This document shows, one piece after another, positions 1,374-48,921 of a stretch of 64,000 bases of DNA. The DNA comes from Candidatus Uhrbacteria bacterium (GTDB lineage: Bacteria > Patescibacteriota > Patescibacteriia > UBA9934 > GWF2-40-263), in NCBI GenBank assembly GCA_026395055.1, contig JAPLZK010000002.1:128154-192153 (forward strand), read 5' to 3'. Under the pieces are notes generated by a model. That model was given only the letters and a program-made list of their open reading frames with translations, had not been told where the DNA came from and did no database searches. The translations under genes were made by a program, and so were the position numbers. Every line of letters starts with the position of its first letter. The first letter of the stretch is position 1.

Positions 1374-2525
1374 CTAGATTGCAAGCATACGATTGATGCC
1401 GAGTTTCGCTTGAGCCGCAATGGACTTTTGAATGTGCACCTCGCGTTCATTCGAGATTGGATTGCGCGGATCGCAGCAGTCGTCGCAAAGGACGATTTCA
1501 ATGCGATCCTGCTCCAGACTCACAAGCAATTTCTCAAACGAGTTCGCTTTCATGAATTTGCAGACGGCCTGATCACTCACAGGAACGAATTCTTTTTCCG
1601 GCATCGCTTTACGCAACCGGTAAATCATTCCGCTTTCGGTTGCGATGAGAAACCGTTTAGCGGGCGACACGCGCGCACGTTCGAGCATTTGAGATGTAGA
1701 AAGAAAGTAGGCGCGTTCTTTTGGAATCACTCCCGCATTCAATTTCATAAGACACGAGTTTGCACATCCGCATTCCGGATGAATGATGAGTTCTGCGTCC
1801 GGATCATCGTCCATCGCATTTTCAATCACGTGTTCGCCAATCTTCTCATGTACGTAACAGCAGGCGTGAAACCCGTTGAAGGATTCCATGTAGACGTCGA
1901 CGCGCTTCGGATCAACGCCAAATTGATTGGCGGCCTTTGTGCGCATGACGTAGCCCAGGAACTTATCTGGGCACACAAGAATTTGCGAGGTCGGATGTTC
2001 TTTTGCCGCGACCGCGATGACACGATCGGTATTGCCCGACGTGCAAATGTAATCGGAAATGCTTTTGAGGTACGCGTCTGAATTGATGTAGGTGATGACC
2101 ACGCCGTTTGGGTGGAGTCGTTTCCACTTCTCAATCCATGCATGGTTGGTTCCAAAGACGAGCGAACAGCCGAGGGCGTCCGGAGTATCTGGAACAAAGA
2201 CGCGTGTCTTGTCTCCCGAAATGATTTTTGCGGTCGCGCCCATAAAGAACACACTTTGGAAATCGACGCGCGGAGCTTTTCGTCGATCCACTTCACGACT
2301 GAGTTCAAGCGAATCGCCAACAAGGTCGGCGAGCTCATGAAACTCAGGTGGCAGATAATTGTGCGCAGCAATGAACGAGTGCTTCTCCGCTGCACGTGCA
2401 CGAATTTGGATGGCGAGCTCCGCGAGTTCACGACACCGATCGAGGGTGTAGACACCTGGATACAAATCCGAGGCGAATCGAGAAAAGTTGTCGTGGTACT
2501 GACGGGCAAGATCTACTGCATTCAT
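1374..2525 (-). CDS. nadA: Quinolinate synthase NadA
   Basis: 383-aa ORF with the NadA hallmarks: conserved His/Cys [4Fe-4S] ligand context (HPECGC, HACCYVHE) and the three-repeat NadA layout. Confidence 0.8.
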   Translation of the reverse strand: MNAVDLARQYHDNFSRFASDLYPGVYTLDRCRELAELAIQIRARAAEKHSFIAAHNYLPPEFHELADLVGDSLELSREVDRRKAPRVDFQSVFFMGATAKIISGDKTRVFVPDTPDALGCSLVFGTNHAWIEKWKRLHPNGVVITYINSDAYLKSISDYICTSGNTDRVIAVAAKEHPTSQILVCPDKFLGYVMRTKAANQFGVDPKRVDVYMESFNGFHACCYVHEKIGEHVIENAMDDDPDAELIIHPECGCANSCLMKLNAGVIPKERAYFLSTSQMLERARVSPAKRFLIATESGMIYRLRKAMPEKEFVPVSDQAVCKFMKANSFEKLLVSLEQDRIEIVLCDDCCDPRNPISNEREVHIQKSIAAQAKLGINRMLAI

Positions 2526-2640: not shown

Positions 2641-2722
2641 TTAGGGATTAGGGGTAAGGGGCGAGGGGTTCGTAAAGCCAATTGGCTACTAGTCCCTAAA
2701 CCCTAATCCCTTACCCCTCCCA
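2641..2722. repeat. G-rich/C-rich imperfect hairpin element (TTAGGG-like heptamer runs around a central GCCAATTGGC palindrome)
   Basis: ttagggattaggggtaaggggcgagggg ... gccaattggc ... ccctaaaccctaatcccttacccctccc. The two arms are approximately reverse-complementary. Related to the elements at 22748-22820 and 21041-21077. Confidence 0.7.
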
Positions 2723-2795: not shown

Positions 2796-4115
2796 ATGTA
2801 CGACGTAATTGTGATTGGCCACGGTGTTACCGGCGCAGGCTTGGAATGGGTCTTGAGCCGCTATTCGAATGCAACGCGCATTTTGGGTATCGAACGACGC
2901 AAGGGCGCCGGCATGGTGAACTCGAATGTCACAAACAATTCGCAAACGCTTCACAAGGGCGATATCGAAAGCAATTATCCGCTCGATAAAGCTTTGCAAG
3001 TGAAGTGGGGTGCGGATTTGCTCGGCGCGTTCGTTGATCAGAATTTGCCTCACGGCAAGCTTGTCATACCGAAGCAATTGATTGCTGTTGGTGATGAGGT
3101 CGATGAGCTCACGAAACGGTTTCATCAGTTCAAACCGCATTATCCGGACATTCAGTTGTTGGATGGAAACGGCATTGCCGAACTCGAACCGCTTGTGATG
3201 GAGGGGCGCGATCCGAAGCAAAAGATTGCGTCGCTCTACAGTCCTCGCGGTCACGCGGTGAATTACCATCTTCTCGCAGAGAAGTTTGTGGATCTCGCAA
3301 AGGCGAGTGGTAAAGAGATCGATATTCGCTACAACACATCTGTACAACGCATCGAACGTACTGCGCATGGGTTCAATGTTCATGCCGACGGTGTTGTACA
3401 TTCTGCGAAGTTTGTGAGCGTATCGGCCGGCTCTGCAAGCCTGCTCTTTGCTCACGCGCTCGGCTACGAGCTTGACCTCGCGCTTCTCCCCGTTGCCGGA
3501 AGTTTCTACACCAACAAGCGTGTTGGAGGATTGCTTCAGGGCAAAGTCTACACGATGCAGGATCCAAAACTGCCGTTCGCGGCCGTTCACGGAGATCCGG
3601 CTGTGTACAACACGGATGAAACGCGTTTCGGTCCCACGGCTCGTCCACTTCCGCTTCTCGAGCGCGATTCGTGGCGGACGCTCGCGGAATTTCTCGACAT
3701 CGGCACCGTGACCCCGCGTGGGATCTGGAGCCTTCTCAAGATCATCTCGGATCCGACCATTGGATCGTTCGCTCTTTGGAATATGGTGTTCGACATTCCG
3801 TGGATCGGCAAACATGCATTCCTGCGCGACGCGCGTAAGATCGTGCCGAGTCTCGGTATTGATGACATCATGCTCGACAAGGGCGCGGGTGGCGTGCGTG
3901 GTCAGCCGATCAGTTTGAAAACGGGTTCGATCGTAAAAGGTCGCGACCGTTTCATTCCGAAGGATGCGCCGATCGCCTTCACTCTCGCTCCGTCGCCCGG
4001 CGCATCCTATTGCCTTGGCAACGCGGTCGAACTCGCGCGCGCCATGGTCGAACGTGTTCCGGGATTTCAGTTTGATGAGCAACGTCTGCTCGCGGATCTG
4101 AAACTTGACGCGTAA
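2796..4115 (+). CDS. mqo: Malate:quinone oxidoreductase-family FAD-dependent oxidoreductase
   Basis: N-terminal FAD-binding motif DVIVIGHGVTGAG. Segment NNSQTLHKGDIESNY and especially PLVMEGRDPKQKIA closely resemble conserved Mqo blocks. Length 439 aa, shorter than E. coli Mqo. Confidence 0.65.
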   Translation: MYDVIVIGHGVTGAGLEWVLSRYSNATRILGIERRKGAGMVNSNVTNNSQTLHKGDIESNYPLDKALQVKWGADLLGAFVDQNLPHGKLVIPKQLIAVGDEVDELTKRFHQFKPHYPDIQLLDGNGIAELEPLVMEGRDPKQKIASLYSPRGHAVNYHLLAEKFVDLAKASGKEIDIRYNTSVQRIERTAHGFNVHADGVVHSAKFVSVSAGSASLLFAHALGYELDLALLPVAGSFYTNKRVGGLLQGKVYTMQDPKLPFAAVHGDPAVYNTDETRFGPTARPLPLLERDSWRTLAEFLDIGTVTPRGIWSLLKIISDPTIGSFALWNMVFDIPWIGKHAFLRDARKIVPSLGIDDIMLDKGAGGVRGQPISLKTGSIVKGRDRFIPKDAPIAFTLAPSPGASYCLGNAVELARAMVERVPGFQFDEQRLLADLKLDA

Positions 4116-7090: not shown

Positions 7091-7131
7091 CTCTCCCCTG
7101 CCTGAGGGGAGAGGAGGAGAGGGGTGGGAGG
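7091..7131. repeat. G-rich palindromic mini-element (CCCCTGC-loop-GGGGAG followed by a G-run)
   Basis: ctctcccctgcctgaggggagaggaggagaggggtgggagg. Member of the short hairpin plus G-run family. Confidence 0.6.
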
Positions 7132-7219
7132 CAAATTGTTTGTGATAGAAAAATCCATATTCATCGAACAGCCTGAACTTCTGAAGAACTTTTTTCTCAA
7201 GAATTACACAAAAAGAGTA

Positions 7220-10100: not shown

Positions 10101-10229
10101 TAAAATTCCAAGAGAATAAATACGAATATCGAATAACGAAATTCGAAAACCAAAGAAATTATTTACCTGTTTTCGTCTTTCGGATTTCGAGTTTCGAATT
10201 TATTCATTCTTGGTGCTTAATTTTACCTT

Positions 10230-20342: not shown

Positions 20343-22745
20343 ATGAGCTATAACCATCAGGAAATCGAAAAGAAATGGCAAGCCAAGTGGGCGGCCGCTC
20401 GAACGGGGTATGTTGACGAGTCTGTATCTCGTGACAATGCGCTTTATTACTTGATTATGTTCCCGTATCCGTCTGGTTCCGGGCTTCACGTTGGACACGT
20501 GGAATCGCAAGCCGCGATTGATATTTTGGCGCGTATGGAGCGTATGCGCGGAAAGAATGTTTTGTGCCCGATCGGTTACGATGCGTTCGGACTTCCAGCT
20601 GAGAACTATGCCATCAAGACAGGTGTGCATCCGTCCGTCACCACAAAAGCCGCGATTGAGAACTTTCACAATCAAATGCAATCGCTTGGTTTGTCTTTTG
20701 ATTGGTCGCGCGAAATCTCGACCGCGGATCCTGAATATTACAAATGGACGCAGTGGTTGTTTTTGTTGTTTTACAAAAATGGATTGGCTTATCGAAAAAA
20801 ATCTCCCGTGAACTGGTGTGAAGGGTGTCACACGGTTCTTGCGAATGAACAAGTTGTTGCCGGTGCGTGTGAGCGCTGCGGCACGGTTGTGATTCAAAAA
20901 GATTTAGAGCAGTGGTTTTTTAACATCACAAAATACGCAGACCGACTGCTCGCCGGCCTCGATTCGCTCGATTGGCCAGAAAAGATTAAGTCGATGCAAC
21001 GCAACTGGATTGGAAAATCGGTTGGGGCAGAGGTGACGTTCGGGGTGGAGGGGCGAGGGGTTAGGGGCGAGGGGCTAGCCGTAACGGTTTTCACAACGCG
21101 TCCTGATACATTGTTTGGCGCAACCTATTTGGTTCTTGCGCCAGAACATGCGCTCGTTGATTCAATTGTCACGGATGAATATCGATCGGCTATTGAAGCG
21201 TATCGCATTGCGGCATCAAAAAAATCTGCGCTTGAGCGTACGGAATTACAAAAAGAAAAGTCCGGTGCGTTTACGGGATCATTCGCCATCAACCCGGCAA
21301 CAGGAGAAAAGATTCCTGTTTGGATTGCAGACTACGTCATTACCACATATGGAACGGGAGCGATCATGGCGGTGCCAGCGCACGATGCGCGAGATTTTGA
21401 ATTTGCCAAAAAATATCAGTTGCCAATAAAAGTTGTTGTTGCAAAGGATGGAGAAGAGTTGGAAGGATTTTTTGAAGAAGGCCTCGCGGTTCATTCAGAT
21501 TTTTTGAATGGCCTCTCGACCAAAGACGCAAAACAAAAAATGATTGCTTGGCTTGAAGAGAAGGGGATTGGAAACGCAAAGACTACATTCCGTATTCGCG
21601 ATTGGCTCGTGTCTCGTCAACGTTATTGGGGAGCACCGATTCCAATTATTTGGTGTGAAGATCACGGGGCGCAAGCGGTTGAAGAAGTTCAATTGCCTGT
21701 CGAGTTGCCAACGGACGTTGATTTTAAACCAACAGGAGAATCGCCACTCGTTGACTCAAAAACATTTCACGATGTGAAATGTCCGGTGTGTGGAAAAGAC
21801 GCGCGTCGCGAGTCAGACACAATGGATACATTCGTAGATTCTTCTTGGTACTATCTTCGCTATACAGATCCGCACAACCCAAATGCGTTCGCGGATAAAT
21901 CGAAGGTAGATTATTGGTGTCCGGTTGATCTGTACCTTGGTGGTGCAGAACACGCGGTGATGCACTTGTTGTACGCACGCTTCTTTGCGTATGCGCTTCA
22001 TGATCTTGGTTATCTCAATTTCGAGGAACCGTTTATGAAGTTGCGCAACCAAGGACTCATTCTTGGACCCGATGGTGACAAGATGTCAAAGTCAAAGGGG
22101 AACGTGGTGAATCCAGATGAAGTTGTCTCAGAATACGGAGCTGATGCGCTTCGGATGTACGAAATGTTCATGGGTCCACTCGAAGACGCAAAGCCATGGG
22201 ACACAAAGGGAGTTGTTGGGATTCGTCGTTTTCTCGACAAGGTTGAGCGATTAGGAGAACGGGTGCAGGGAGCACCAGATGCGGGTGTTCAACGAACATT
22301 GCATAAAGCCATAAAAAAAGTTACGGCAGACCTGGAAGAATTAAAATTCAACACAGCGATTTCACAGCTCATGATCGTGGTGAATGAATTTTCCGCCGCG
22401 ACTTCGATCAACAAAGAAACATTTGAATCATTTTTGAAACTCCTCGCACCTCTTGCGCCGCATTTGGCAGAAGAGTTGTGGGAGAAGCTTGGGCACGCAA
22501 CGTCGATCTTTGCAGAGTCATGGCCAATGTTCGACGCGGCAATGATCGTTGATGATGTTGTAGAAATGGGAGTTCAGGTCAACGGAAAAGTTCGCGGAAC
22601 AATCTCGATTGCACCAACAGCAGATGAAGCGATCGCAAAAGATCTTGCCATGGCAGAACCAAATGTTGTGAAATGGATCGAAGGAAAAGAAATTGCAAAA
22701 ATTATTTACGTCCCAGGAAAAATCTTTAATATTGTTGTGAGATAA
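20343..22745 (+). CDS. leuS: Leucine--tRNA ligase
   Basis: HIGH-type motif (PYPSGSGLHVGH), editing domain with TTRPDTLFGATY, KMSKS motif present. Start at MSYNHQEIEKKWQ. Confidence 0.9.
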   Translation: MSYNHQEIEKKWQAKWAAARTGYVDESVSRDNALYYLIMFPYPSGSGLHVGHVESQAAIDILARMERMRGKNVLCPIGYDAFGLPAENYAIKTGVHPSVTTKAAIENFHNQMQSLGLSFDWSREISTADPEYYKWTQWLFLLFYKNGLAYRKKSPVNWCEGCHTVLANEQVVAGACERCGTVVIQKDLEQWFFNITKYADRLLAGLDSLDWPEKIKSMQRNWIGKSVGAEVTFGVEGRGVRGEGLAVTVFTTRPDTLFGATYLVLAPEHALVDSIVTDEYRSAIEAYRIAASKKSALERTELQKEKSGAFTGSFAINPATGEKIPVWIADYVITTYGTGAIMAVPAHDARDFEFAKKYQLPIKVVVAKDGEELEGFFEEGLAVHSDFLNGLSTKDAKQKMIAWLEEKGIGNAKTTFRIRDWLVSRQRYWGAPIPIIWCEDHGAQAVEEVQLPVELPTDVDFKPTGESPLVDSKTFHDVKCPVCGKDARRESDTMDTFVDSSWYYLRYTDPHNPNAFADKSKVDYWCPVDLYLGGAEHAVMHLLYARFFAYALHDLGYLNFEEPFMKLRNQGLILGPDGDKMSKSKGNVVNPDEVVSEYGADALRMYEMFMGPLEDAKPWDTKGVVGIRRFLDKVERLGERVQGAPDAGVQRTLHKAIKKVTADLEELKFNTAISQLMIVVNEFSAATSINKETFESFLKLLAPLAPHLAEELWEKLGHATSIFAESWPMFDAAMIVDDVVEMGVQVNGKVRGTISIAPTADEAIAKDLAMAEPNVVKWIEGKEIAKIIYVPGKIFNIVVR
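21041..21077. repeat. In-frame G-rich repeat insertion inside leuS (GGGG-N-GAGGGG-TTAGGGG units)
   Basis: ggggtggaggggcgaggggttaggggcgaggggctag encodes GVEGRGVRGEGLA immediately before the conserved TTRPDT block. Same unit type as the intergenic elements at 2641 and 22748. Confidence 0.65.
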
Positions 22746-22747
22746 AA

Positions 22748-22820
22748 TAGGGACGAGGGGTTAGGGGCTAGGGGTTAGGATGGCCGATCGGCTACTAATC
22801 CCTCGTCCCTCGTCCCTCAC
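22748..22820. repeat. G-rich/C-rich imperfect hairpin element with a central GCCGATCGGC palindrome
   Basis: gggacgaggggttaggggctaggggttagg ... ggccgatcggc ... taatccctcgtccctcgtccctc. Sits between the leuS stop and the ugd start. Confidence 0.7.
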
Positions 22821-22831
22821 TCCTTTCCTGT

Positions 22832-24142
22832 ATGAACTTGGTGATTGTTGGAACGGGCTATGTTGGCCTTACATCTGCACTTGGATACACGCAACTCGGA
22901 CACCGAGTTGCGTGTGTTGACGTGGATGCAGAAAAAATTGCGCAGCTTGATCTTGGTCATGTGCCATTCTTCGAGGCGGGCCTCTCGGACGTGCTGCATA
23001 TTGCACAAGAATCTGGTTCGATTATTTTTACAACAGATCTTGCGTCTGTTTTGTCAGAAGCAGAACTTGTTTTGTTTGCTGTCGGAACGCCATCGACCTC
23101 GACGGGGGAAGCGAACTTGTCGTATCTCTTGCATGCTGCACGCGACGTTGGTCGATATCTCGACCACGAGGTTCTTCTCGTTGTGAAGAGCACGGTTCCG
23201 GTTGGAACCAATCAACGCGTTCTGGAAGTTGTGCGTGAGGCAATGACCGCAGCGGGTCGACAAGATCTCACGAGCCTGATTCAGATTGCATCGCTCCCAG
23301 AATTTTTGCGAGAAGGAAGTGCACTTGCAGATTTTATGGCACCAGAACGTATTGTTGTTGGGGCAGAAGACGAAGTGGCTTATCGAATGATTGAAGAATT
23401 ACATCGTGGAATACAAACGACGTGGGTGAAAACGACGATCGAAACGGCTGAACTTACAAAGTACGCAGCAAACGCCATGCTCGCCACAAAGATCTCGTTT
23501 ATTAACGAGATCGCAAATATTGCCGAACGAACCGGGGCAAATGTGGTCGACATCGCACATGCGATTGGACTCGACTCGCGCATTGGCCCACATTTTTTAA
23601 ATGCCGGAATTGGTTATGGTGGTTCGTGTTTTCCAAAAGATGTTTCAGCGTTGCGACAGATTGCGGGATCCATTGGGTATGATTTTAAATTGTTGTCTGC
23701 GGTGATTGAGGTGAATAATCACCAGCGCGATATCTTTTTGAAAAAAATCCAAGATGTTCTTGGAGACCTGAAAGGTCGCCGCATTGCGGTTTGGGGTCTT
23801 GCCTTTAAACCGGGGACGGACGACGTTCGTGAATCTGCAGCCATCGATCTGGTTCGACGACTCTATGCGCTTGGTGCAGACGTATTGGCCTATGATCCAA
23901 AAGGAATGGAAACGGCGAAACGCGTTTTACCAGATGGAATTCAATTTGCTCCAACCGCGATTGATGCGGCAGAGGGGGCAGAGGCACTTGTTGTGTTGAC
24001 GGAGTGGCCAGAATTTCGTGATGTCTCTTTTACAACGTTAAAAGCACGTATGCTGGATCCGATTGTGTTTGATGGAAGAAATTGTCTGCGAGATGTACGA
24101 CTCGAAAAATTTGGATTTACCTATGTGGGAGTTGGGATTTAA
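22832..24142 (+). CDS. ugd: UDP-glucose 6-dehydrogenase
   Basis: N-terminal NAD-binding motif GTGYVGL, catalytic GGSCFPKD and UDPG_MGDP dehydrogenase C-terminal motifs. Confidence 0.85.
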   Translation: MNLVIVGTGYVGLTSALGYTQLGHRVACVDVDAEKIAQLDLGHVPFFEAGLSDVLHIAQESGSIIFTTDLASVLSEAELVLFAVGTPSTSTGEANLSYLLHAARDVGRYLDHEVLLVVKSTVPVGTNQRVLEVVREAMTAAGRQDLTSLIQIASLPEFLREGSALADFMAPERIVVGAEDEVAYRMIEELHRGIQTTWVKTTIETAELTKYAANAMLATKISFINEIANIAERTGANVVDIAHAIGLDSRIGPHFLNAGIGYGGSCFPKDVSALRQIAGSIGYDFKLLSAVIEVNNHQRDIFLKKIQDVLGDLKGRRIAVWGLAFKPGTDDVRESAAIDLVRRLYALGADVLAYDPKGMETAKRVLPDGIQFAPTAIDAAEGAEALVVLTEWPEFRDVSFTTLKARMLDPIVFDGRNCLRDVRLEKFGFTYVGVGI

Positions 24143-31334: not shown

Positions 31335-33323
31335 TTACAGGCTGAGCTCTTCGATCATGGCGAGGACTTCCTCGATCCAGAGCGTGAGCGTGACGTCCGC
31401 AGGCGCGCGCCAATCGCCGCGAGGGCTGAGCGAGACACTTGCAACCTTGGGGCAGTCCGGCAGGTTTTGCCGTTTGAATTGCGCGTTTGAGAACCGAGTC
31501 AGAAACGCGAGGAGCCATTTCAGAATCGTTACGCGATCATATTCGCCCGCGAACGTGAGTTCCGCGAGCCAGGCAATTTTCCGCGGTGCGTAACCGTTTC
31601 GGATCATGTGCCAGAGGAAAAAGTCATGCAGGATGTACGGACCAATGAGATCTTCGGTCAATTGTTCGATCTCACCAGCCTTCTTTGGCTTTGTGAGTTC
31701 GGGCGAGATGGGCGTAGCGAGCACATCAAGGATTGCCTTGCGGATTTCCTTGAAGAGCTCAATGTCCGCCGCATAGCGCACGAGATATTTCACGAGGGTC
31801 TTCGGGATGTCGCCATTGGGGTTGTACATCGACTGTTGATCGCCGTTGTACGTGCACCAACCTTGCGCAATCTCAGAGAGGTCCCCGGTGCCAATCACGA
31901 ACCCGAGGTCCATGAGAATGTGCGTGCGTTCACGCGCTTGGGCGTTTTCGCACTTGAGGCACGTCCAGCACGGCTCGTGTCCAATGCTTCGCAGATGCGT
32001 CGTCACATTTTTCACAATCGAGATGTCTTTCCAGGTGACACCCGTTTGCCGGATGAGCTTCAGCGCATTTTTCTTGGTGCGCTTCGATGTGCCAGCTCCT
32101 GGCATGGTCACAGCAAGGATGCCCTTGCGATCCCAACCGAGTTCATCGAACGCACGAAGAACGAAGAGAAACGCGAGGAGCGAATCGAGGCCGCCCGAGA
32201 TGCCAATGACGACATCGCGGCGACCGGTTCCTTTTTCGAAACTCATGAGCCGACGCTTGAGCGCGGTCACGACGTGAGCATAAATGTCTTCGCACCGTTC
32301 GGTGCGCTTTTTTTCATCCGACGGAACAAACGGGAGTTTGTTCAGGTTGATGCGAGGCGCGGCAGCGATTTTGTCATCGACCGACTCGATCGTACATTCG
32401 ATATGTCGAAACGTTTTCGGATCGACCATGGAGGTCTGACCGAAACTTCCGGACATGAATCGTTCGCGTTCGAGCTTCTCCACGTCCACATCCGTGATGA
32501 GGAGTTGAGGTTCGAACTGAAACGGCTTGGAGCGTATGCGCATGTGACCGTTTTCTGCGATCATCGCGTCGCCGTCAAAGATGACGTCGCCGGAAGATTC
32601 CCACGGACCAGACGAAACATACAGGTACGCGCTCATGCAGTGTGCGGCCTGTTGCGTCACGAGGTCGTAGCGATACGAGCCCTTTCCGATCTCGCTGTTT
32701 GAAGCAGAGAGATTCGTAAGAATCGTCGCGCCCGCGTTCGCTTGGTGCGAACTCGGGGGGATCGGCATCCAGAGATCTTCGCAGATCTCGGTGCCGAGGC
32801 AAAAGATGCGGCGTTTGTTCGAACCGGTTCCGACGAACACATCGATCACATGATCGGTGCCGAAGGGGACACGTTGTCCGCAGAGTTCCACTTCCGATAC
32901 GGTCGCTTCGTACCCAGGCCGAAACCATCGCCCTTCGTAGAAGTGTTTGTAGTTCGGAATGAACGTCTTTGGCGTGATGCAGAGGATTACGCCTTTGTGC
33001 ATCGTGACCGCAACGTTGAACAACTTCTGGTTCACGAGCAGCGGCATGCCGACTTGAATGATCATGTCTGCATCGGCCGTTGTTTTGAGTAGCAAGCTCA
33101 ATCCGTCGATCGCTTTCTCATGGAGAAACGGTTGCAAGAACAGATCGCCGCAGGTGTAGCCCGTGAGCGACAGTTCTGGGAATGTGAGGAGCTGAACATG
33201 TTGATACGCTGCTTCCCCGACAAGCTTCGCCATTTCAAAAACGTTCATGAGCGGATTGGTGACATGCACCATCGGCACAGCAACCGCTGTACGAACAAGT
33301 CCAAACGCATTCTTGGGTTTCAT
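31335..33323 (-). CDS. nadE: Glutamine-dependent NAD+ synthetase (CN-hydrolase plus NAD synthetase domains)
   Basis: N-terminal nitrilase/CN-hydrolase domain, C-terminal PP-loop SGGLDS, 662 aa. RBS aaggaga. Confidence 0.85.
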   Translation of the reverse strand: MKPKNAFGLVRTAVAVPMVHVTNPLMNVFEMAKLVGEAAYQHVQLLTFPELSLTGYTCGDLFLQPFLHEKAIDGLSLLLKTTADADMIIQVGMPLLVNQKLFNVAVTMHKGVILCITPKTFIPNYKHFYEGRWFRPGYEATVSEVELCGQRVPFGTDHVIDVFVGTGSNKRRIFCLGTEICEDLWMPIPPSSHQANAGATILTNLSASNSEIGKGSYRYDLVTQQAAHCMSAYLYVSSGPWESSGDVIFDGDAMIAENGHMRIRSKPFQFEPQLLITDVDVEKLERERFMSGSFGQTSMVDPKTFRHIECTIESVDDKIAAAPRINLNKLPFVPSDEKKRTERCEDIYAHVVTALKRRLMSFEKGTGRRDVVIGISGGLDSLLAFLFVLRAFDELGWDRKGILAVTMPGAGTSKRTKKNALKLIRQTGVTWKDISIVKNVTTHLRSIGHEPCWTCLKCENAQARERTHILMDLGFVIGTGDLSEIAQGWCTYNGDQQSMYNPNGDIPKTLVKYLVRYAADIELFKEIRKAILDVLATPISPELTKPKKAGEIEQLTEDLIGPYILHDFFLWHMIRNGYAPRKIAWLAELTFAGEYDRVTILKWLLAFLTRFSNAQFKRQNLPDCPKVASVSLSPRGDWRAPADVTLTLWIEEVLAMIEELSL

Positions 33324-33373
33324 AGTGTCTCCTTGTCTTCTCGGTTGTAGGGAGCAGAATCAATTCGTCTGAT

Positions 33374-33428
33374 CTTCACGCGCTGACACATGTCGGCGGG
33401 TGGAGAAAAGGGCGATGTAAACATCGCC
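33374..33428. promoter_or_regulatory. Conserved intergenic module, copy A
   Basis: Inverted repeat cttcacgcgctgaca-ca-tgtcggcgggtggag, then aaaag, then hairpin ggcgatgtaaacatcgcc. On the minus strand this reads as hairpin, CUUUUCUCC, then the inverted repeat, upstream of the nadE RBS. Confidence 0.6.
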
Positions 33429-33479
33429 AGATGTTGTAGGGACAGGTCGTGACCTGTCCGATCGAATACGATCATGGGT

Positions 33480-34427
33480 CTAGTACAGAATATCGCCGTT
33501 GTGATCCCAGTTGCGGTAACCGTGACCATCGGGCTTGTGCACGATCGACTTCATGACCGTGCCGCCGTTTGCTTCTTCACAACGCGCGAACGTAACGTTC
33601 ACGCCGTGCGACTTCTCATCGAAAATGCCACCGACCAGGAACACAGGTGTGCCCCAGGGGAGTGGATTGCCGATGCGGACACCGTGCAGTTTTTGCTCGC
33701 CAAATTCGGTGAACTCAGCTTGCAGAGGCGCGATGTCGATCCAGTTCTTTGCGTTCCAGTCCACGACTTCTTGCGTTGCGCGGCCAACCGACTCCGGCCG
33801 CCATACTTCACGAATCACCACCATCTGCACACCGAGATTGCCCAGCACTTTGATGTACTCGAGAATCCCCGCAGCATCTTTCACGCCCGACTTGTTGATG
33901 ACAAGTGATGCACGCACAAGGAGTCCGAGTTCACGACATCGTTTGATAAGATCGGCGGGCGATTTCTTGATCAACATGAGTCCACGATTCTGTTCGAAGT
34001 CGTGGCTTGCAATCGAGAGTGTGATCATGGTGAGACCATAGCTGACCAAAGTGTCGAGCAAATGCTCTTTTGGCATGCCTGCCTGAAAAAGAAATCCGTT
34101 CGTATGCATATCTACAAGCGGAAGATATTTCGCACATTCCGTCACAACGTTCACGAGGTATTCTGGCGATTCCTGACTCGGATCCGCGCGACCCGTGAGA
34201 ATTGCATGCGTCGCGCCTGTGCGCTCAGCGAACCGGAGTCCGACGCGCAGTCGGTGTAGTTCGCATGTCTTCACGTCTTTTTCGTTTTCCATTTCCGTCC
34301 CGGGTGTTGTGCGACTGATGCAGAATTTGCATCCAGCCGTGCAGCGTTCTCGTGTCGAAAGCTGAACGGAAATGCTTTGCGCGCGCATCTGTCCGGAGCC
34401 GTGGGCGATTTGCCGATGTTCTGTCAT
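33480..34427 (-). CDS. Radical SAM protein (activase-like family)
   Basis: CxxxCxxC motif (CTAGCKFC), LTGRADP (LTGGEP-like) and TNG motifs. The start is the second Met (RBS gaaggag), because the longer six-frame ORF reads through the upstream intergenic element. Confidence 0.7.
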   Translation of the reverse strand: MTEHRQIAHGSGQMRAQSISVQLSTRERCTAGCKFCISRTTPGTEMENEKDVKTCELHRLRVGLRFAERTGATHAILTGRADPSQESPEYLVNVVTECAKYLPLVDMHTNGFLFQAGMPKEHLLDTLVSYGLTMITLSIASHDFEQNRGLMLIKKSPADLIKRCRELGLLVRASLVINKSGVKDAAGILEYIKVLGNLGVQMVVIREVWRPESVGRATQEVVDWNAKNWIDIAPLQAEFTEFGEQKLHGVRIGNPLPWGTPVFLVGGIFDEKSHGVNVTFARCEEANGGTVMKSIVHKPDGHGYRNWDHNGDILY

Positions 34428-34445
34428 TTGAATGTACTCCTTCAC

Positions 34446-34501
34446 CTTCACACGTCGACGAAATTGTCGGCGGGTGGAGAAAAGAGGTGAGAGACTCACC
34501 T
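34446..34501. promoter_or_regulatory. Conserved intergenic module, copy B
   Basis: cttcacacgtcgac-gaaatt-gtcggcgggtggag, then aaaag, then hairpin aggtgagagactcacct. Confidence 0.6.
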
Positions 34502-34523
34502 GAGAGAGTTGAACGCTGGAAGA

Positions 34524-35159
34524 TTACATGCCCCCTGTATTCGGCCAGCGTGTTTTGGGCGCGGCTTTCAGACGGCGGATTTCTTCTTTCAGTCGCATGT
34601 TCTGAATGTACAAACGAAATGCGTAGACGCGCAGATCGACGCAGACGTAGGTGTCTGCAAGAAATTCTTCTTCGGACACCCAATGGCGGATGATCTCTTC
34701 GCCCTCACCTGCAAGGCCGAATGTATCGTCGTCATGACCGGAAAGTTGATCGATCGTGATCTGTGCGTAGCAAAGGTGCGTGCGTTCCGGAATGATTCCG
34801 ACCGAGAGCACCATACTCACACCATTGTTCAAAACGATGATGGATTCTTCTGGGATGGTTGCGCCGAGTTCTTCCGAACCTTCCGCGACACACAGTTGCT
34901 TTGGCGAAACGTTTCGATCGAACCGACCTGCGAATGGGGTGATGAGTTCACCGGTTGGGTTCTCATCTGTCTGCACCGCAATGTGTGGCGAGCGAATGAG
35001 AAGCACACGCTTGTTCACGACGTCGTGGAGAATTCCGGCGACCGAGTCTGTGCAACGTACGATGTACCAGGGATTGCCCGTGACGGGGTGTTCCCATTCT
35101 TCGAGTCGCAAGAATTTGTTTTCGTAAAGGACGCGAACGAATGTTGCGGGTTTGGACAT
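34524..35159 (-). CDS. NUDIX hydrolase, ADP-ribose pyrophosphatase-like
   Basis: NUDIX box AGRFDRNVSPKQLCVAEGSEELG aligns with the NudF-type GX5EX7REUXEEXGU motif. RBS aaggag. Confidence 0.6.
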   Translation of the reverse strand: MSKPATFVRVLYENKFLRLEEWEHPVTGNPWYIVRCTDSVAGILHDVVNKRVLLIRSPHIAVQTDENPTGELITPFAGRFDRNVSPKQLCVAEGSEELGATIPEESIIVLNNGVSMVLSVGIIPERTHLCYAQITIDQLSGHDDDTFGLAGEGEEIIRHWVSEEEFLADTYVCVDLRVYAFRLYIQNMRLKEEIRRLKAAPKTRWPNTGGM

Positions 35160-35177
35160 GTGAGGAACTCCTTCTGA

Positions 35178-35233
35178 TCTTCACGCGTCGATAAGATATC
35201 GGCGAGTGGAGAAAAGGCTCGAGCGTTTCGAGC
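35178..35233. promoter_or_regulatory. Conserved intergenic module, copy C
   Basis: cttcacgcgtcgata-ag-tatcggcgagtggag, then aaaag, then hairpin gctcgagcgtttcgagc. Confidence 0.6.
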
Positions 35234-35243
35234 AGGTGTTGTC

Positions 35244-36500
35244 CTAGACCTGGCACGTGACATTCACGTGTGTGTACCGATCATAGTTTGTGAGGCGCTT
35301 CACGCGCGTCACAGAGGATTTGCGTCCGGTCAGTTTCTTTCGGTTGTCCGAGAGTTTGACGGTCGCGCGTCCACAGATGTGCGTGAGCTTGCAGACAATC
35401 GAGAGGGCTTTCAGTCCACGATTGTTTTTATAGGATTGGAATCCCATGTTATTGCCGAGGTTCGTGCCCCAACCAAATGCGAGCTTGATGCGACCACGGA
35501 AGTGCGCGTTCAGTTTCACAATGAGTCGTGCATCGAGACCGTCCGAGAAGACAATCAATTTCGTTTTCGGATCGATGCCGATCGATTCGTAGTACGCGAT
35601 AACTTTCTCCCCGTACGCAAACGGGTCGCCGGAATCGTGACGTGTTCCGATCCACTTCTTTGCAAACGCTTCGAAGTGTTCAAGAAAGTAGTCAGAGCCG
35701 TACGTGTCCGAGAGTGCAATGGAAAGGATTGTGCCATAGAGGGCAAACCATTGTTCAAGGAGAAGTTCGTGCGAGTACATGTACCCGGCCGCGTCATCCT
35801 CTTTGTGGTAGATGCCTTGATACCCCATGTCCATTTCGTGGGCGATGGTGCCGATCGCATCGATACCGAGTTCGATCGCAATCCAAATGTTTGACGTGCC
35901 GGTAAACTGCGCGCCTATTTTTGCGGTGCAGGTTGCGGCAACTTCACGCTGCCATTCGTAACTCCAACGACGACGCGTGCTGAAATCGGAGACGATCGCG
36001 TCCGACTCCATCACAATCTCGATGTTCTCGATCAACTTGTCACGGCCAGAGGCGAGGACTTCTTCTTCGGTGAGACCAAGCTCTGTGCACTTCGCGCGGA
36101 AGTACAGGCGGTTGACCACGTTCATGATGAACGTTTCCCACATCGTGATTGCCGTCCACTTGCCCCGCGCATGAATGGCGAGCTTGCCCTTCACAACGCC
36201 GACATGAATATCGGAGAGCTTGTAGGATTTCAGCCACGTCAGAAATGCAGGCTGCAATTGCCGACCAAGTGTCGGATGATTCCGAAGGCGTTCGATCATC
36301 TCGTCCGTCATCGTCATCTGCTTGATGTGGTCGAGTTCTGCTTGGACTTGCTCGATCGTCATGAAGTCGAGCAGATTCACATCTGTCCGATTCTTGAACG
36401 TGAATCGTCCCCTCCGTTTGCGCTGATGGAGCCAGATGAACTGGAGCATCATCAGTTTGTACTTGTCTGTATCGAGTAAGTTTTTGACGATGTCGAACAT
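35244..36500 (-). CDS. pncB: Nicotinate phosphoribosyltransferase
   Basis: N-terminal LLDTDKYKLMMLQ motif characteristic of NAPRTase, with size (about 420 aa) consistent. Start at MFDIVKN with RBS aaggaga. Confidence 0.75.
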   Translation of the reverse strand: MFDIVKNLLDTDKYKLMMLQFIWLHQRKRRGRFTFKNRTDVNLLDFMTIEQVQAELDHIKQMTMTDEMIERLRNHPTLGRQLQPAFLTWLKSYKLSDIHVGVVKGKLAIHARGKWTAITMWETFIMNVVNRLYFRAKCTELGLTEEEVLASGRDKLIENIEIVMESDAIVSDFSTRRRWSYEWQREVAATCTAKIGAQFTGTSNIWIAIELGIDAIGTIAHEMDMGYQGIYHKEDDAAGYMYSHELLLEQWFALYGTILSIALSDTYGSDYFLEHFEAFAKKWIGTRHDSGDPFAYGEKVIAYYESIGIDPKTKLIVFSDGLDARLIVKLNAHFRGRIKLAFGWGTNLGNNMGFQSYKNNRGLKALSIVCKLTHICGRATVKLSDNRKKLTGRKSSVTRVKRLTNYDRYTHVNVTCQV

Positions 36501-36656
36501 CGTGTTCTCCTTGTGCAAAAAGGACAGACCCACGAACGTCTTTCGTTCGTGAGAGAAATGTGCCCTCGAGCGCACATGCGCTCGAGAAAACGTTTCTTGG
36601 TCTTTCGAGAAAAATATCCTCGGGGCTGAATGTTCAGCCCCGGGAAGAAGAAGGAA

Positions 36657-38045: not shown

Positions 38046-38060
38046 GGTGTACTCCTTCAG

Positions 38061-38120
38061 CTTCAGCGTCCCAGGAGTGGGGCGCTTAAGAAAAGGGCAG
38101 AGTTCGAGAACTCCGCGAGA
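38061..38120. promoter_or_regulatory. Degenerate copy D of the intergenic module
   Basis: cttcagcgtcccaggagtggggcgcttaagaaaaggg followed by hairpin gcagagttcgagaactccgc. On the minus strand this is a hairpin plus CCCUUUUCUU. Confidence 0.45.
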
Positions 38121-38133
38121 GAATGAACGAATC

Positions 38134-38904: not shown

Positions 38905-38931
38905 CACTGCCTTTACGAACTTCCTAATTTT

Positions 38932-39705: not shown

Positions 39706-39726
39706 CGTGTCTCCTTGTGGTGTGAG

Positions 39727-39800
39727 CCTTCGATTTCAGAACCTCATTGTTGGGGTGCTGAAGAAAAGGGCTCTACATTTCGTTTTGCTGATTTGTATGT
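39727..39800. promoter_or_regulatory. Degenerate copy E of the intergenic module, also the pncA terminator region
   Basis: cttcgatttcagaacctcattgttggggtgctgaagaaaaggg followed by hairpin gctctacat...atggagagc. Confidence 0.45.
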
Positions 39801-39843
39801 GCAAGGTGAAATGGAGAGCGGGGGAGAGAAAGAGCGAATTGCC

Positions 39844-40602: not shown

Positions 40603-40607
40603 GACTC

Positions 40608-40635
40608 ACCTCAATCCCCACGGTGGGGAGGTTCA
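40608..40635. repeat. G-rich palindromic mini-element at the pncA 5' end
   Basis: cctcaatcccca-cgg-tggggaggtt. May supply the SD on the minus strand (ggaggtgagtcATG). Confidence 0.5.
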
Positions 40636-40817
40636 ACGAACAGAATCTGCGGAAAACACTGTGTCATCTGCAGATGAATTCATTGAAAAAACGCTTTTTG
40701 AGAACCGGGGAGAATACCTGATTTTGGCCATTTTGTCAATGGTTTTCGGTTGGTTTACACGAACGAACCCTGAGCGGCCCTTTTCGAGGCTTTTTCGTTG
40801 GAAGGTGCTGTAAATTA

Positions 40818-40844
40818 AAGTAAGTGTAGACTATACACTTACTT
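40818..40844. promoter_or_regulatory. Perfect 11-bp-arm inverted repeat, candidate operator
   Basis: AAGTAAGTGTA-gacta-TACACTTACTT between the nrtR 3' end and the pncA upstream region. Shares the GTGTA...TACAC core with the palindrome at 41582-41596. Confidence 0.45.
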
Positions 40845-48888: not shown

Positions 48889-48921
48889 TAAACCCTAGTC
48901 CCTCGTCCCTAATCCCTCCCA
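48889..48921. repeat. C-rich half-element (complement of GGGAGGGATTAGGGACGAGGGACTAGGG) in the rpsL leader
   Basis: aaaccctagtccctcgtccctaatccctccc directly upstream of the rpsL ATG. Same heptamer units as 2641 and 22748, on the opposite strand. Confidence 0.55.

What the first reader, a model, noticed from the sequence alone, without database searches (positions are those of the whole stretch)
21041..21077. TTAGGGG/GAGGGG heptamer-type G-run element inserted in-frame in the leuS editing domain, with relatives at 2641, 22748 and 48889
Inside leuS, ggggtggaggggcgaggggttaggggcgagggg encodes GVEGRGVRGEGLA right before the conserved TTRPDT motif. The same unit structure forms long G-arm/C-arm hairpins around central palindromes (GCCAATTGGC, GCCGATCGGC) at 2641-2722, between divergent nadA and mqo promoters, and at 22748-22820, between leuS and ugd. 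It also appears as a C-rich half-copy in the rpsL leader. Five or more consecutive G-tracts mean strong G-quadruplex potential on one strand. The units look like telomere repeats (TTAGGG), which is unexpected in a bacterial chromosome.
Basis: seen in the sequence. Interest (0 to 1): 0.6.

Follow-up and report, generated by a model that had tools for sequence, protein, structure and literature searches.

The report
G-run heptamer hairpin repeats, CPR bacterium
A tiny-genome bacterium (Candidatus Uhrbacteria) carries its own family of ~80-base hairpin repeats built from seven-base G-rich units, and a piece of one was recently written, in frame, into a floppy surface loop of its essential leucyl-tRNA synthetase; it looks like tolerated repeat DNA, not a telomere or a working part of the enzyme.

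Summary
The window comes from a Candidatus Uhrbacteria (Patescibacteria/CPR) MAG. It holds two full ~82-nt elements: four NNNGGGG heptamers, an 8-nt spacer, GCCRATYGGC, TACTART, then three or four CCCTNNN heptamers. It also holds two half copies: a G-arm inside leuS and a C-arm in the rpsL leader. Period-7 arrays are about 100-fold over chance; periods 8-11 give none. Relatives have empty sites at three of the four positions. The leuS copy replaces the tip of the beta-hairpin that opens the CP1 editing domain. It adds 5 residues, uses the rarest codons in the gene, and is the only segment of the model with pLDDT below 50. That loop ranges from 10 to 229 residues among orthologues. The copy shares 23 of 25 bases with the G-arm 1.7 kb downstream. 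G4Hunter scores are 2.2-2.6, but full copies fold as -37 to -45 kcal/mol hairpins. The telomere likeness is coincidental: (NNNGGGG)n arrays are common in metagenomes, and paired arms run 5'-G to C-3' in 20 of 21 cases. Most likely this is a lineage-private, hairpin-forming heptamer-repeat module that survives only at permissive sites. How it spreads, and whether the C-arms next to start codons have a role, remains open. I rate it a new variant of a known kind.

The parts
21042..21080 (+). In-frame G-arm-only copy inside leuS. It has five to six G4 tracts (GGGG TGGA GGGG CGA GGGG TTA GGGG CGA GGGG) and encodes GVEGRGVRGEGLA (LeuRS residues 234-246), the tip of the beta-hairpin just before TTRPDT.
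   Evidence: relatives have AVASSDES; G4Hunter 2.56; nhmmer E = 0.03; +5 aa against T. thermophilus LeuRS 1H3N; rarest codons in the gene, rank 2 of 787; strands 225-236 and 245-251; residues 240-243 are the only stretch with pLDDT < 50; 23/25 identity to B's G-arm.
22747..22822 (+). Full element B between the leuS stop and the ugd ATG. G-arm 22747-22781 (ATAGGGA CGAGGGG TTAGGGG CTAGGGG TTAGGAT), palindrome GCCGATCGGC 22783-22792, TACTAAT 22793-22799, C-arm 22800-22820 (CCCTCGT CCCTCGT CCCTCAC).
   Evidence: MFE -45 kcal/mol, z = -4.6; the spacer is -4 to 22 nt in five relatives against 86 nt here; no terminator-like T run.
2641..2721 (+). Full element A between the divergent nadA and mqo promoters. 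G-arm 2641-2668 (TTAGGGA TTAGGGG TAAGGGG CGAGGGG), spacer 2669-2676, palindrome GCCAATTGGC 2677-2686, TACTAGT 2687-2693, C-arm 2694-2721 (CCCTAAA CCCTAAT CCCTTAC CCCTCCC).
   Evidence: MFE -36.9, z = -2.5; -35 boxes at 2626-2621 on the - strand and 2726-2731 on the + strand; relative L159 has the two -35 boxes 6 nt apart and no element.
48893..48920 (+). C-arm-only copy in the rpsL 5' leader: CCCTAGT CCCTCGT CCCTAAT CCCTCCC, then ACT and the ATG at 48924. It has the same ...CCCTCCCAC terminus as element A. There is no Shine-Dalgarno sequence.
   Evidence: nhmmer E = 0.08; terminator 48738-48766, promoter-like site 48787-48815, so the array is in the leader; relative L153 has a 4-unit C-array at the same position; absent in L154, L155 and L156.
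10108..10213 (+). Same architecture with an unrelated unit: an AT-rich inverted heptamer-array hairpin after the infB stop. The 5' arm is 10120-10147 (ATACGAA TATCGAA TAACGAA ATTCGAA) and the 3' arm is 10170-10199 (TTTTCG TCTTTCG GATTTCG AGTTTCG AAT). It is not a member of the G-run family, but it shows the period-7 inverted-array design recurring in this genome.
   Evidence: MFE -37.2 kcal/mol, z = -6.4; the upstream ORF is IF-2.

Best explanation
These are copies and fragments of a lineage-private, hairpin-forming repeat module about 82 nt long. Each module is a 5' arm of NNNGGGG heptamers, a short asymmetric core (GCCRATYGGC-TACTART), and a 3' arm of complementary CCCTNNN heptamers. It belongs to the broad and poorly understood class of bacterial heptanucleotide repeat arrays.

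In this very compact CPR genome, copies persist only where extra DNA does no harm:
- between two back-to-back -35 boxes (A);
- between a stop codon and the next start codon (B);
- in a Shine-Dalgarno-less 5' leader (rpsL);
- as a G-arm-only fragment kept in frame by selection, at the tip of a hypervariable surface beta-hairpin of LeuRS.

The leuS piece was most likely copied from a G-arm like that of element B, 1.7 kb downstream, by template switching or gene conversion. It overwrote the ancestral 8-residue loop. It is a passenger with no role in aminoacylation or editing.

Shown here: the anatomy, the relatedness of the copies, their absence at orthologous sites in relatives, the hairpin potential, the period-7 excess, the foreign codon usage and the loop location.

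Inferred: that the module spreads by copying (enzyme unknown), that the arms grow and shrink by slipped-strand mispairing, and that the leuS copy is neutral.
For: 1. A and B have identical architecture and spacing and share an exact 21-nt degenerate core that chance does not give. Their arm spacers differ but stay complementary within each copy, with 3 doubly changed pairs out of 23.
2. There are empty sites in relatives.
   - leuS-ugd spacer: 3, 4, 5 and 22 nt, or a 4-nt overlap, in five relatives, against 86 nt here.
   - nadA-mqo spacer: in L159 the two -35 boxes are 6 nt apart, against 99 nt here.
   - leuS loop: AVASSDE(S/Q) in orthologues at 88, 84 and 80% identity.
3. The leuS array matches B's G-arm at 23 of 25 bases, including a 15-mer found only at those two places. 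Its codons are the rarest in the gene: mean synonymous fraction 0.18 against 0.43, with AGG at 2% of Arg codons and CTA at 1% of Leu codons.
4. The site is permissive. The loop ranges from 10 to 229 aa in 116 orthologues (mode 12). It hosts unrelated hairpin-like inserts and whole ASCH or Ham1 domains. In the model it is the tip of a beta-hairpin and the only stretch with pLDDT below 50.
5. A relative (L153) carries an independent in-frame G-heptamer array in a different variable loop of LeuRS, and a full G-arm/C-arm element between the RNase Y and HU genes.
6. The distribution is patchy, as expected of a lineage-specific activity. There are no period-7 arrays in about 67 kb from five relatives. 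There are four arrays in 22 kb of L153 and seven or more arms in this 64 kb.
7. Period 7 is specifically enriched. This matches the known excess of heptanucleotide repeats in some bacteria (Mrazek 2007, as summarised in PMC4679880).
Against: - No transposase, RAYT or reverse transcriptase turned up among 30 window ORFs.
- There is no target-site duplication at B's junction.
- Only two full copies are available, so 'family' rests on a small sample.
- Genome-wide copy number is unknown. The core pattern has no hit elsewhere in GTDB species representatives or JGI metagenomes.
- C-arms abut start codons in four cases (ugd, rpsL in two genomes, HU in L153). This could mean function rather than mere tolerance.
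- The rpsL array is shared with a more distant relative.
- The strict 5'-G to C-3' polarity seen across metagenomes (20 to 1) is not predicted by a simple selfish-element model.
Confidence: 0.6

Rival explanations
1. The arrays are cis-acting expression signals. The pyrimidine-rich C-arm placed directly before a start codon serves as a Shine-Dalgarno-independent ribosome or protein landing site. The full hairpin brings the upstream stop codon and the downstream start codon together for coupled translation. The leuS copy is then a by-product.
For: - C-arms end 3-11 nt before the ATG of ugd and rpsL here, and 3-7 nt before the ATG of rpsL and HU in L153.
- None of these genes has an SD. Many translation genes in the window also have SD-less, C/U-rich leaders.
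- The rpsL-leader array sits at the same position in two genomes whose LeuRS is 78% identical.
- There is a close parallel with TAACTGA heptamer repeats, which sit just upstream of start codons without ribosome-binding sites, including in ribosomal-protein operons (PMC4679880). Heptamer repeats are also reported near start codons in Nostoc (bioRxiv 10.1101/2022.06.06.494920).
Against: - The closest relatives express the same genes without the arrays. ugd is coupled to leuS by a 3-5 nt spacer, and L154, with a homologous rpsL leader and 95% identical S12, has no array.
- Element A lies outside both predicted transcripts.
- In full copies the C-arm is sequestered in a -37 to -45 kcal/mol stem.
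- No experiment in any organism has yet shown the proposed function.
Confidence: 0.2
2. Each array arose independently on the spot by replication slippage of a seed heptamer, with fold-back template switching creating the second arm. There is no mobile element at all.
For: - The AT-rich hairpin at 10108-10213 has the same design with an unrelated unit.
- L153 has independent arrays with other units, ACAAGGG and CCCCTAA.
- The empty site for B already holds a TAGGG seed: AATAGGG|TATG in L029.
- Heptamers are the favoured slippage unit in bacterial long simple-sequence repeats (Mrazek 2007, via PMC4679880).
Against: - Slippage cannot explain why A and B share the asymmetric, non-repetitive core GCCRATYGGCTACTART with the same spacing.
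- It cannot explain why A and the rpsL copy share the terminus CCCTCCCAC.
- It cannot explain the 15-mer shared by the leuS array and B.
- The units within an arm are not identical, as a fresh slippage array would be.
Confidence: 0.12
3. The elements work through G-quadruplex or i-motif formation. They would act as DNA- or RNA-level switches for transcription, replication or recombination, possibly serviced by the neighbouring HrpA-like DEAH helicase.
For: - G4Hunter scores are 2.24-2.56, with four to six runs of GGGG and 3-nt loops.
- Element A lies between divergent promoters, where negative supercoiling would favour extrusion.
- An HrpA-like helicase gene sits directly upstream of the rpsL C-array. 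E. coli HrpA binds G4 and i-motif structures in vitro (PMC11014265).
- E. coli has an intergenic repeat proposed to act as a G4-hairpin-duplex switch (PMC5100583).
Against: - There is no conservation of the G-arms at these sites in relatives.
- In full copies the complementary arm offers a very stable competing hairpin or duplex.
- The helicase match starts at HrpA profile position 66, so it appears to lack the N-terminal APHB domain that mediates G4 and i-motif binding (PMC11014265).
- L153 has arrays but no helicase at that locus.
- Folding in vivo is untested.
Confidence: 0.06
4. Artefact or contamination: an assembly chimera, eukaryotic telomeric reads, or chance low-complexity sequence.
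For: The units resemble TTAGGG and TTTAGGG. A few metagenome hits of the G-arm pattern are indeed long telomere-like arrays.
Against: - A, the leuS array and B appear with identical sequence in the window and in independent assemblies of two runs.
- The arrays are embedded in intact, syntenic bacterial genes.
- The leuS reading frame is preserved.
- The statistics exclude chance.
Confidence: 0.02

Closest known systems
Bacterial heptanucleotide direct repeats: TAACTGA repeats of marine Beggiatoaceae, Cyanobacteria and Bacteroidetes (MacGregor 2015, PMC4679880); cyanobacterial STRR heptamers; 'long simple sequence repeats' (Mrazek 2007)
   Same: - Tandem 7-nt units in short arrays of 2-6 copies.
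- Mostly intergenic, and often within a few nucleotides upstream of start codons that lack a ribosome-binding site. This includes ribosomal-protein genes.
- Occasionally inside ORFs.
- Patchy phylogenetic distribution.
- Function and origin unknown.
   Different: - The unit sequence is different and G-run based (NNNGGGG / CCCTNNN).
- The units within an arm vary in their 3-nt spacers.
- The arrays come as complementary inverted pairs around a conserved core and form an ~80-nt hairpin. In BOGUAY, 169 direct sets and only one indirect repeat were reported.
- The host is a CPR bacterium.
REP/BIME elements mobilised by RAYT transposases (Nunvar 2010, PMC2817692)
   Same: - Short, extragenic, hairpin-forming repeats with no coding capacity.
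- No target-site duplication.
- On the minus strand the core reads GTAG followed by a GC-rich palindrome (GTAGCCAATTGGC, GTAGCCGATCGGC), like the REP head.
   Different: - REPs are 20-40 nt single imperfect palindromes. Here the palindrome is 10 nt and is flanked by 28-35 nt heptamer arms.
- No RAYT gene was seen.
- Copy number is unknown, whereas REPs usually exceed 100 per genome.
Rickettsia palindromic elements (RPEs) and other intragenic MITEs (review PMC10969869)
   Same: Palindromic repeat DNA is inserted in frame into conserved housekeeping genes, at positions compatible with the protein fold. Related copies lie in intergenic DNA.
   Different: - RPEs are ~150 bp and insert as whole elements. 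Here only one 35-nt arm is in the gene, and it replaced the resident loop.
- There is no sequence similarity.
- No heptamer periodicity is described for RPEs.
E. coli intergenic G-quadruplex-hairpin-duplex switch motif (Kaplan 2016, PMC5100583)
   Same: A repeated intergenic motif in which a G4-forming tract is accompanied by a conserved complementary C-rich tract. Hairpin and G4 are therefore alternative folds.
   Different: - In E. coli the C-rich region is on the 5' flank of the G4 tract. Here the G-arm is 5'.
- The sequence is different, with no heptamer arrays.
- No intragenic copy was reported.

Membership tests
Heptanucleotide tandem repeats (LSSR / STRR / TAACTGA-type) | Head-to-tail repeats of a 7-nt unit, three or more copies, in excess of chance | tested here: met
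   TRF finds period 7 and 14 arrays at 21048-21078, 22748-22779, 22799-22818 and 48893-48917. Period-7 arrays: 5 observed against 0.05 expected; periods 8-11 give 0.
Heptanucleotide tandem repeats (LSSR / STRR / TAACTGA-type) | Mostly intergenic, often directly upstream of start codons without an SD (the TAACTGA pattern, PMC4679880) | tested here: met
   C-arms end 11 nt (ugd) and 3 nt (rpsL) before the ATG, and neither gene has an SD. The same holds for rpsL and HU in L153. Element A is upstream of both promoters, and one copy is intragenic.
Heptanucleotide tandem repeats (LSSR / STRR / TAACTGA-type) | Same unit sequence as a described family (TAACTGA; STRR CCCCAGT, TTGGTCA, CAACAGT, the STRR units recalled from memory) | tested here: not met
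   The units are TTAGGGG, CGAGGGG, CTAGGGG, TAAGGGG and their complements. Full-text search for such strings returned no paper.
REP/BIME (RAYT-associated) | GTAG-type head followed by a 20-40 nt GC-rich imperfect palindrome (PMC2817692, Table 1) | tested here: inconclusive
   On the minus strand the core reads GTAG+CCAATTGG+C and GTAG+CCGATCGG+C in both full copies. The palindrome is only 10 nt, and the stem is otherwise made of heptamer arms.
REP/BIME (RAYT-associated) | A cognate RAYT (Y1 transposase) gene in the genome; usually more than 100 copies | not testable with these tools
   No such domain among 30 window ORFs. There are 4 loci in 72.6 kb.
MITE | Terminal inverted repeats plus a target-site duplication | tested here: not met
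   The arms are inverted repeats. The filled-versus-empty comparison at B (AATAGGG|...|TATG against AATAGGGTATG in L029) shows no duplication.
RPE-like intragenic palindromic element | A whole palindromic element inserted in frame at a fold-compatible site of a conserved protein | tested here: not met
   The copy is in frame and sits at a disordered hairpin tip. Only the G-arm is present, and it replaced the ancestral 8 codons.
G-quadruplex motif | Four or more runs of three or more G with loops of 1-7 nt; G4Hunter above about 1.5 | tested here: met
   leuS 2.56, A 2.28, B 2.24. GGGG runs with 3-nt loops.
G-quadruplex motif | Actual G4 folding in the cell or in vitro | not testable with these tools
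   ViennaRNA models only canonical pairing. The competing hairpins are -36.9 and -45 kcal/mol.
Intrinsic (Rho-independent) terminator | GC-rich hairpin followed directly by a T run | tested here: not met
   No terminator-like site at A or B. A canonical one exists in the same window at 48738-48766.
Telomeric repeats | Long terminal arrays at the ends of a linear replicon | tested here: not met
   The arrays are 4-5 units, internal, and flanked on both sides by syntenic bacterial genes.
Any Rfam RNA family | Score at or above the family's gathering threshold | tested here: not met
   No hit in the window at gathering thresholds. Only sub-threshold miRNA-hairpin noise on A and B, and sub-threshold sRNA or leader matches confined to the terminator hairpin at 48730-48780.

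The most novel reading that the evidence does not exclude
The window's elements may be local examples of a widespread, unnamed class of bacterial repeat: polar inverted heptamer-array hairpins. In these the purine or G-run arm is always 5' and the pyrimidine or C-run arm 3', on both strands. The ratio is 20 to 1 among metagenome loci. Both window copies, the L153 element and the AT-rich hairpin at 10108-10213 follow the same rule.

Such strict polarity together with the 7-nt step would point to a dedicated generating mechanism. One example is reiterative 3'-end synthesis of G-rich heptamers on both ends of a break, followed by joining, which automatically gives 5'-G...C-3' on both strands. The alternative is strong selection for a C-rich tract next to downstream start codons.

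In CPR bacteria this process would be active enough to rewrite loops of essential genes. LeuRS is hit twice, independently, in two genomes.
Probability: 0.18. Interest if true: 0.75.

Novelty: new variant of a known kind. Interest (0 to 1): 0.5.

Why it matters
CPR/Patescibacteria genomes are about 1 Mb, tightly packed and usually described as poor in repeats. Here a repeat family has recently inserted between -35 boxes, between coupled genes and into an essential aminoacyl-tRNA synthetase, so repeat-driven change is still under way in a streamlined genome. The work also gives three things that can be tested.

1. The beta-hairpin tip before TTRPDT in LeuRS is a natural insertion hot spot. It ranges from 10 to 229 residues and carries hairpin-repeat-like inserts and whole ASCH and Ham1 domains. 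That is useful for protein engineering and for understanding how aaRS acquire new domains.
2. A five-to-six-tract, four-G quadruplex motif lies inside the mRNA of an essential bacterial gene. From my own recollection of Guo and Bartel 2016, such motifs are depleted in bacteria and harmful when introduced.
3. Inverted heptamer arrays across metagenomes follow a 5'-G-arm to 3'-C-arm rule. As far as my literature searches show, nobody has described this, and it constrains any model of how bacterial heptamer repeats arise or what they do.

Tried and rejected
- **Genome-wide compilation of copies.** The core-plus-C-arm pattern GGCTACTANTCCCTNNNCCCT in 185,579 GTDB species genomes gave only 26 single hits in unrelated taxa. 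The source genome is not in the collection. The stricter core pattern in JGI metagenomes gave 0 hits. Copy number therefore could not be obtained.
- **Extending the genome.** Exact-protein look-ups returned only short Logan contigs. One (L158) added 8.6 kb beyond the left edge and contained no arrays. The S12 look-up found nothing on record.
- **Start-codon proximity test.** I asked whether metagenomic G-to-C elements sit next to start codons. The result was 17 of 41 sides against 0.335 at random positions, so it is uninformative. Proximity to ORF ends was enriched (18 of 41 against 0.095), which only shows that the elements are intergenic.
- **Rfam.** Nothing at gathering thresholds. E-value mode gave only miRNA-hairpin noise on A and B, plus sub-threshold sRNA or leader matches on the terminator hairpin at 48730-48780.
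- **Intrinsic terminator reading of B.** Rejected, because there is no T run.
- **Telomere or eukaryotic contamination, and assembly artefact.** Rejected.
- **Literature.** Exact heptamer-array strings appear in no paper. 'TTAGGGG' returns only eukaryotic telomere papers. I found no CPR repeat paper.
- **Mobile-element genes.** No transposase, RAYT or RT among 30 ORFs scanned with Pfam.
- **Orthologous site for element A.** NadA is absent from the close relatives (best hit 68% identity), so this empty-site comparison is with a distant genome.


Full report
**What is there**

The sequence at 21041-21077 is as described. leuS runs from 20343 to 22745 on the + strand. Bases 21042-21080, GGGGTGGAGGGGCGAGGGGTTAGGGGCGAGGGGCTAGCC, encode GVEGRGVRGEGLA, followed by VTVF-TTRPDT.

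The three other places are also as described. The two long ones have the same build:
- four NNNGGGG heptamers;
- 8 nt of spacer;
- a 10-nt perfect palindrome, GCCAATTGGC in one and GCCGATCGGC in the other;
- TACTAGT or TACTAAT;
- three or four CCCTNNN heptamers.

The degenerate 21-mer GCCRATYGGCTACTARTCCCT occurs exactly twice, against none in 100 shuffles. GGGGNNNGGGGNNNGGGG with up to one mismatch gives 7 matches against 0.03 expected.

A profile built from the two full copies recovers the leuS array (E = 0.03) and the rpsL-leader array (E = 0.08), and nothing else convincing in 64 kb.

Period-7 arrays are about 100-fold over a first-order Markov expectation (5 against 0.05). Periods 8-11 give none.

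Both full copies fold into long hairpins. The minimum free energies are -36.9 kcal/mol (z = -2.5) and -45.0 kcal/mol (z = -4.6). The two half copies do not fold. Between A and B the arm spacers differ but remain complementary within each copy: 3 of the 23 consensus pairs changed on both sides. G4Hunter gives 2.56 for leuS, 2.28 for A and 2.24 for B.

**Source and context**

The LeuRS is 100% identical to a protein of a 'MAG: Candidatus Uhrbacteria bacterium', a member of the Patescibacteria or CPR. Window GC content is 47.7%.

A, the leuS array and B are reproduced exactly in independent Logan assemblies of two runs, so they are not assembly artefacts.

Pfam confirms NadA (1374..2525, - strand), an Mqo-like FAD oxidoreductase (2796..4115, + strand) and Ugd (22832..24142, + strand).

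Where each copy sits:
- **Element A** lies exactly between two divergent promoter-like sites. Their -35 boxes are at 2626-2621 and 2726-2731, so A is probably not transcribed.
- **Element B** fills the gap between the leuS stop and the ugd ATG. It has no T run after it.
- **The rpsL array** lies in a 5' leader, downstream of a canonical terminator (48738-48766) and a promoter-like site (48787-48815). It ends 3 nt before the ATG at 48924.

**Are they recent?**

At three of the four sites a relative has an empty site.

- **leuS-ugd spacer.** It is 86 nt here. In five relatives whose LeuRS is 78-88% identical it is 3, 4, 5 or 22 nt, or a 4-nt overlap. The junction reads AATAGGG|TATG in L029 and AATAGGG[78 nt]TATG here, with no target-site duplication.
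- **nadA-mqo spacer.** L159 keeps the divergent gene arrangement. Its two -35 boxes are 6 nt apart (CGTCAA-TTACCC-TTGACA), against 99 nt here, of which about 81 are element A.
- **leuS loop.** Orthologues at 88, 84 and 80% identity share AVASSDE(S/Q), which is 8 residues. This genome has 13. The DNA is replaced rather than simply interrupted.
- **The replacing DNA.** The 13 codons have the lowest codon adaptation in the gene: mean synonymous fraction 0.18 against 0.43, rank 2 of 787 windows. AGG is 2% of Arg codons and CTA is 1% of Leu codons.
- **Likely donor.** The leuS array matches the G-arm of element B, 1.7 kb downstream, at 23 of 25 positions. The match includes a 15-mer, CGAGGGGTTAGGGGC, that occurs only at these two places.

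The fourth site behaves differently. A four-unit C-array sits at the same position of the homologous rpsL leader in L153, whose LeuRS is 78% identical. It is missing from L154, which has 95% identical S12 and a more similar leader, and from L155 and L156. That means either an old array that was later lost, or two gains at one hot spot.

**Why leuS tolerates it**

Against T. thermophilus LeuRS (1H3N) the segment aligns as PVEGKEVR-----IPVFTTRPDT, which makes it a 5-residue insertion.

An AlphaFold2 model (mean pLDDT 88.5) places residues 225-236 and 245-251 in two strands of a beta-hairpin. The G-run-encoded residues form its tip. Residues 240-243 are the only stretch of the protein with pLDDT below 50.

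In 116 orthologues the distance from the GAExxF strand to TTRPDT ranges from 10 to 229 residues, with a mode of 12. The longer versions include:
- peptides that read like translated hairpin repeats (SSRPTEGSRGISSGTREIPRLVDDSSLGMT, CHPERSDGSRDP...QDDT);
- whole ASCH and Ham1 domains.

So this is a general insertion hot spot of CPR LeuRS.

L153 carries a second, independent in-frame G-heptamer array, (ACAAGGG)n, which encodes VGGEGQGTRDKGQGVKEEG. It lies in a different variable loop near residue 630.

**The wider class**

The family-specific core has no match in GTDB species genomes beyond chance singletons, and none in JGI metagenomes.

Many of these loci have the same design: a G-arm, a unique centre and a complementary C-arm.

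Of 89 loci with 200 nt or more on both sides, 20 have the C-array downstream of the G-array and 1 has it upstream. Because a palindrome reads the same on both strands, this polarity is a real property of the elements and not a strand choice.

The elements sit next to ORF ends more often than random positions do (18 of 41 against 0.095), so they are intergenic.

Within the window, an AT-rich hairpin after infB (10108-10213, -37.2 kcal/mol, z = -6.4) has the same inverted heptamer design with an unrelated unit. Its purine-rich arm is again 5'.

L153 has a full G-arm/C-arm element between the RNase Y stop and the HU start, with the C-arm 3 nt from the HU ATG.

Arrays are absent from about 67 kb of five other relatives.

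**Comparison with what is known**

Heptanucleotide repeats are a recognised but unexplained bacterial class. Mrazek's long simple-sequence repeats have heptamers as their commonest unit, and polymerase slippage was proposed as the cause. TAACTGA repeats of Beggiatoaceae, Cyanobacteria and Bacteroidetes sit just upstream of start codons lacking ribosome-binding sites. They include ribosomal-protein genes and a few ORF-internal cases (PMC4679880). Nostoc heptamers lie near promoters and start codons.

The present elements share the period, the array size, the closeness to start codons, the lack of an SD and the patchy distribution. They differ in four ways:
- the units are based on G runs;
- the arms are paired and inverted;
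- there is a conserved asymmetric core;
- the host is a CPR bacterium.

They resemble REPs in being extragenic hairpins without target duplications. The minus-strand core reads GTAG plus a palindrome (PMC2817692). The size does not fit, and no RAYT gene was seen.

They resemble Rickettsia palindromic elements in entering conserved genes in frame (PMC10969869). Here, though, only one arm is present.

An E. coli intergenic 'G4-hairpin-duplex switch' has the same logic of a G4 tract with a complementary C tract, but with the opposite arm order (PMC5100583).

No Rfam family matches.

**Verdict**

The most likely reading (confidence about 0.6) is a lineage-private hairpin repeat module made of heptamer arms. 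It is copied by an unknown route and trimmed by slippage. It survives only at permissive sites. The leuS copy is a G-arm fragment that overwrote a disordered hairpin tip and is carried as a passenger.

The main rival (about 0.2) is that the C-arms next to start codons act as SD-independent translation signals. A slippage-only origin (about 0.12) and a G4 or i-motif function (about 0.06) are less likely. Artefact is excluded.

The telomere likeness is coincidental.

I could not measure genome-wide copy number, the copying mechanism or the in-vivo structure.

Noticed in passing
window 45407-48727 (+), directly upstream of the rpsL leader array: This 1106-aa ORF is an HrpA-like DEAH/RHA helicase (Pfam DEAD, Helicase_C, HA2_C, OB_NTP_bind; NCBIfam HrpA E = 1e-136, matching profile positions 66-683). 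It is not rpoC. In relatives L153, L155 and L156 other genes precede rpsL, so the helicase and ORF 44562-45206 look like an accessory insertion. That is unusual for a small CPR genome. E. coli HrpA binds G4 and i-motif structures through its N-terminal APHB domain (PMC11014265), which this protein seems to lack.
   Followed up: partly
window 10108-10213: An AT-rich inverted heptamer-array hairpin lies right after the infB stop: (NNNCGAA)x4 ... (TTTCGNN)x4, MFE -37.2 kcal/mol, z = -6.4. It has the same architecture and the same purine-arm-5' polarity as the G-run elements, but an unrelated unit. It may act as a terminator.
   Followed up: partly
metagenome loci L032-L151: Four-unit (NNNGGGG) arrays are abundant in metagenomes of all GC contents. 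When a complementary C-array is nearby it is downstream in 20 cases and upstream in 1. Some loci nest arrays of other heptamers (L059 AAGTCAA with CTAGGGG; L099 CGCCGAC, CCAGGGG and GGAACCT). A few are eukaryotic telomere-like arrays (L094, L110, L132, L137).
   Followed up: partly
LeuRS orthologues P0004-P0010, P0014, P0017, P0018, P0077, P0078, P0081 (loop before TTRPDT): The same beta-hairpin tip is an insertion hot spot across CPR LeuRS. It carries ASCH (PF04266) domain inserts of ~125-135 aa, a 229-aa insert in P0010 (which carries PF01725, Ham1), and 29-39 aa peptides that look like translated hairpin repeats (for example SSRPTEGSRGISSGTREIPRLVDDSSLGMT).
   Followed up: partly
L153 11435-11469 (leuS of GCA_039738895.1) and L153 2400-2520: A relative has an independent in-frame heptamer array, (ACAAGGG)n, in a different variable loop of LeuRS (VGGEGQGTRDKGQGVKEEG). 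It also has a full G-arm/C-arm element between the RNase Y stop and the HU start, with the C-arm 3 nt from the HU ATG.
   Followed up: partly
window 7093-7135, between truB and the RNase Y gene (both on the - strand): A short hairpin, CTCTCCCCTGCCTGAGGGGAGAG, is followed by a G-rich run, GAGGAGAGGGGTGGGAGG (G4Hunter 2.12). On the minus strand this puts a C-rich tract in the RNase Y leader. It is not period-7 and not related to the family core.
   Followed up: no
window, start regions of fusA (49935), tuf (54284), ribosomal protein genes (56795-62948), leuS (20343) and ndk (25672): Many highly expressed genes have no Shine-Dalgarno sequence and have C/U- or A-rich leaders. Several metabolic genes have canonical AGGAGG or AAGGAG. 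Initiation in this organism therefore uses a mix of modes.
   Followed up: no
genome loci L003, L005, L020, L024, L028 (Dialister/Fusicatenibacter), L008, L009, L014, L017: Chance hits of the core pattern in unrelated gut and soil bacteria are themselves heptamer arrays, (TAATCCC)n, (TACTCCC)n and (CAGTCAC)n, next to GGCTAC. In L008 and L014 a conserved-looking double hairpin (CTCCCC..GGGAG, GTGGC, a second hairpin, GACGGAGAGGG) precedes them.
   Followed up: no
window 38134-41574 and 31335-38273: An NAD-metabolism cluster (NadE, NAPRTase, an NMNAT/NAD-kinase-like protein, the NrtR regulator) includes two adjacent SLOG/LSDAT-domain proteins (38134-38907 and 38932-39705).
   Followed up: no
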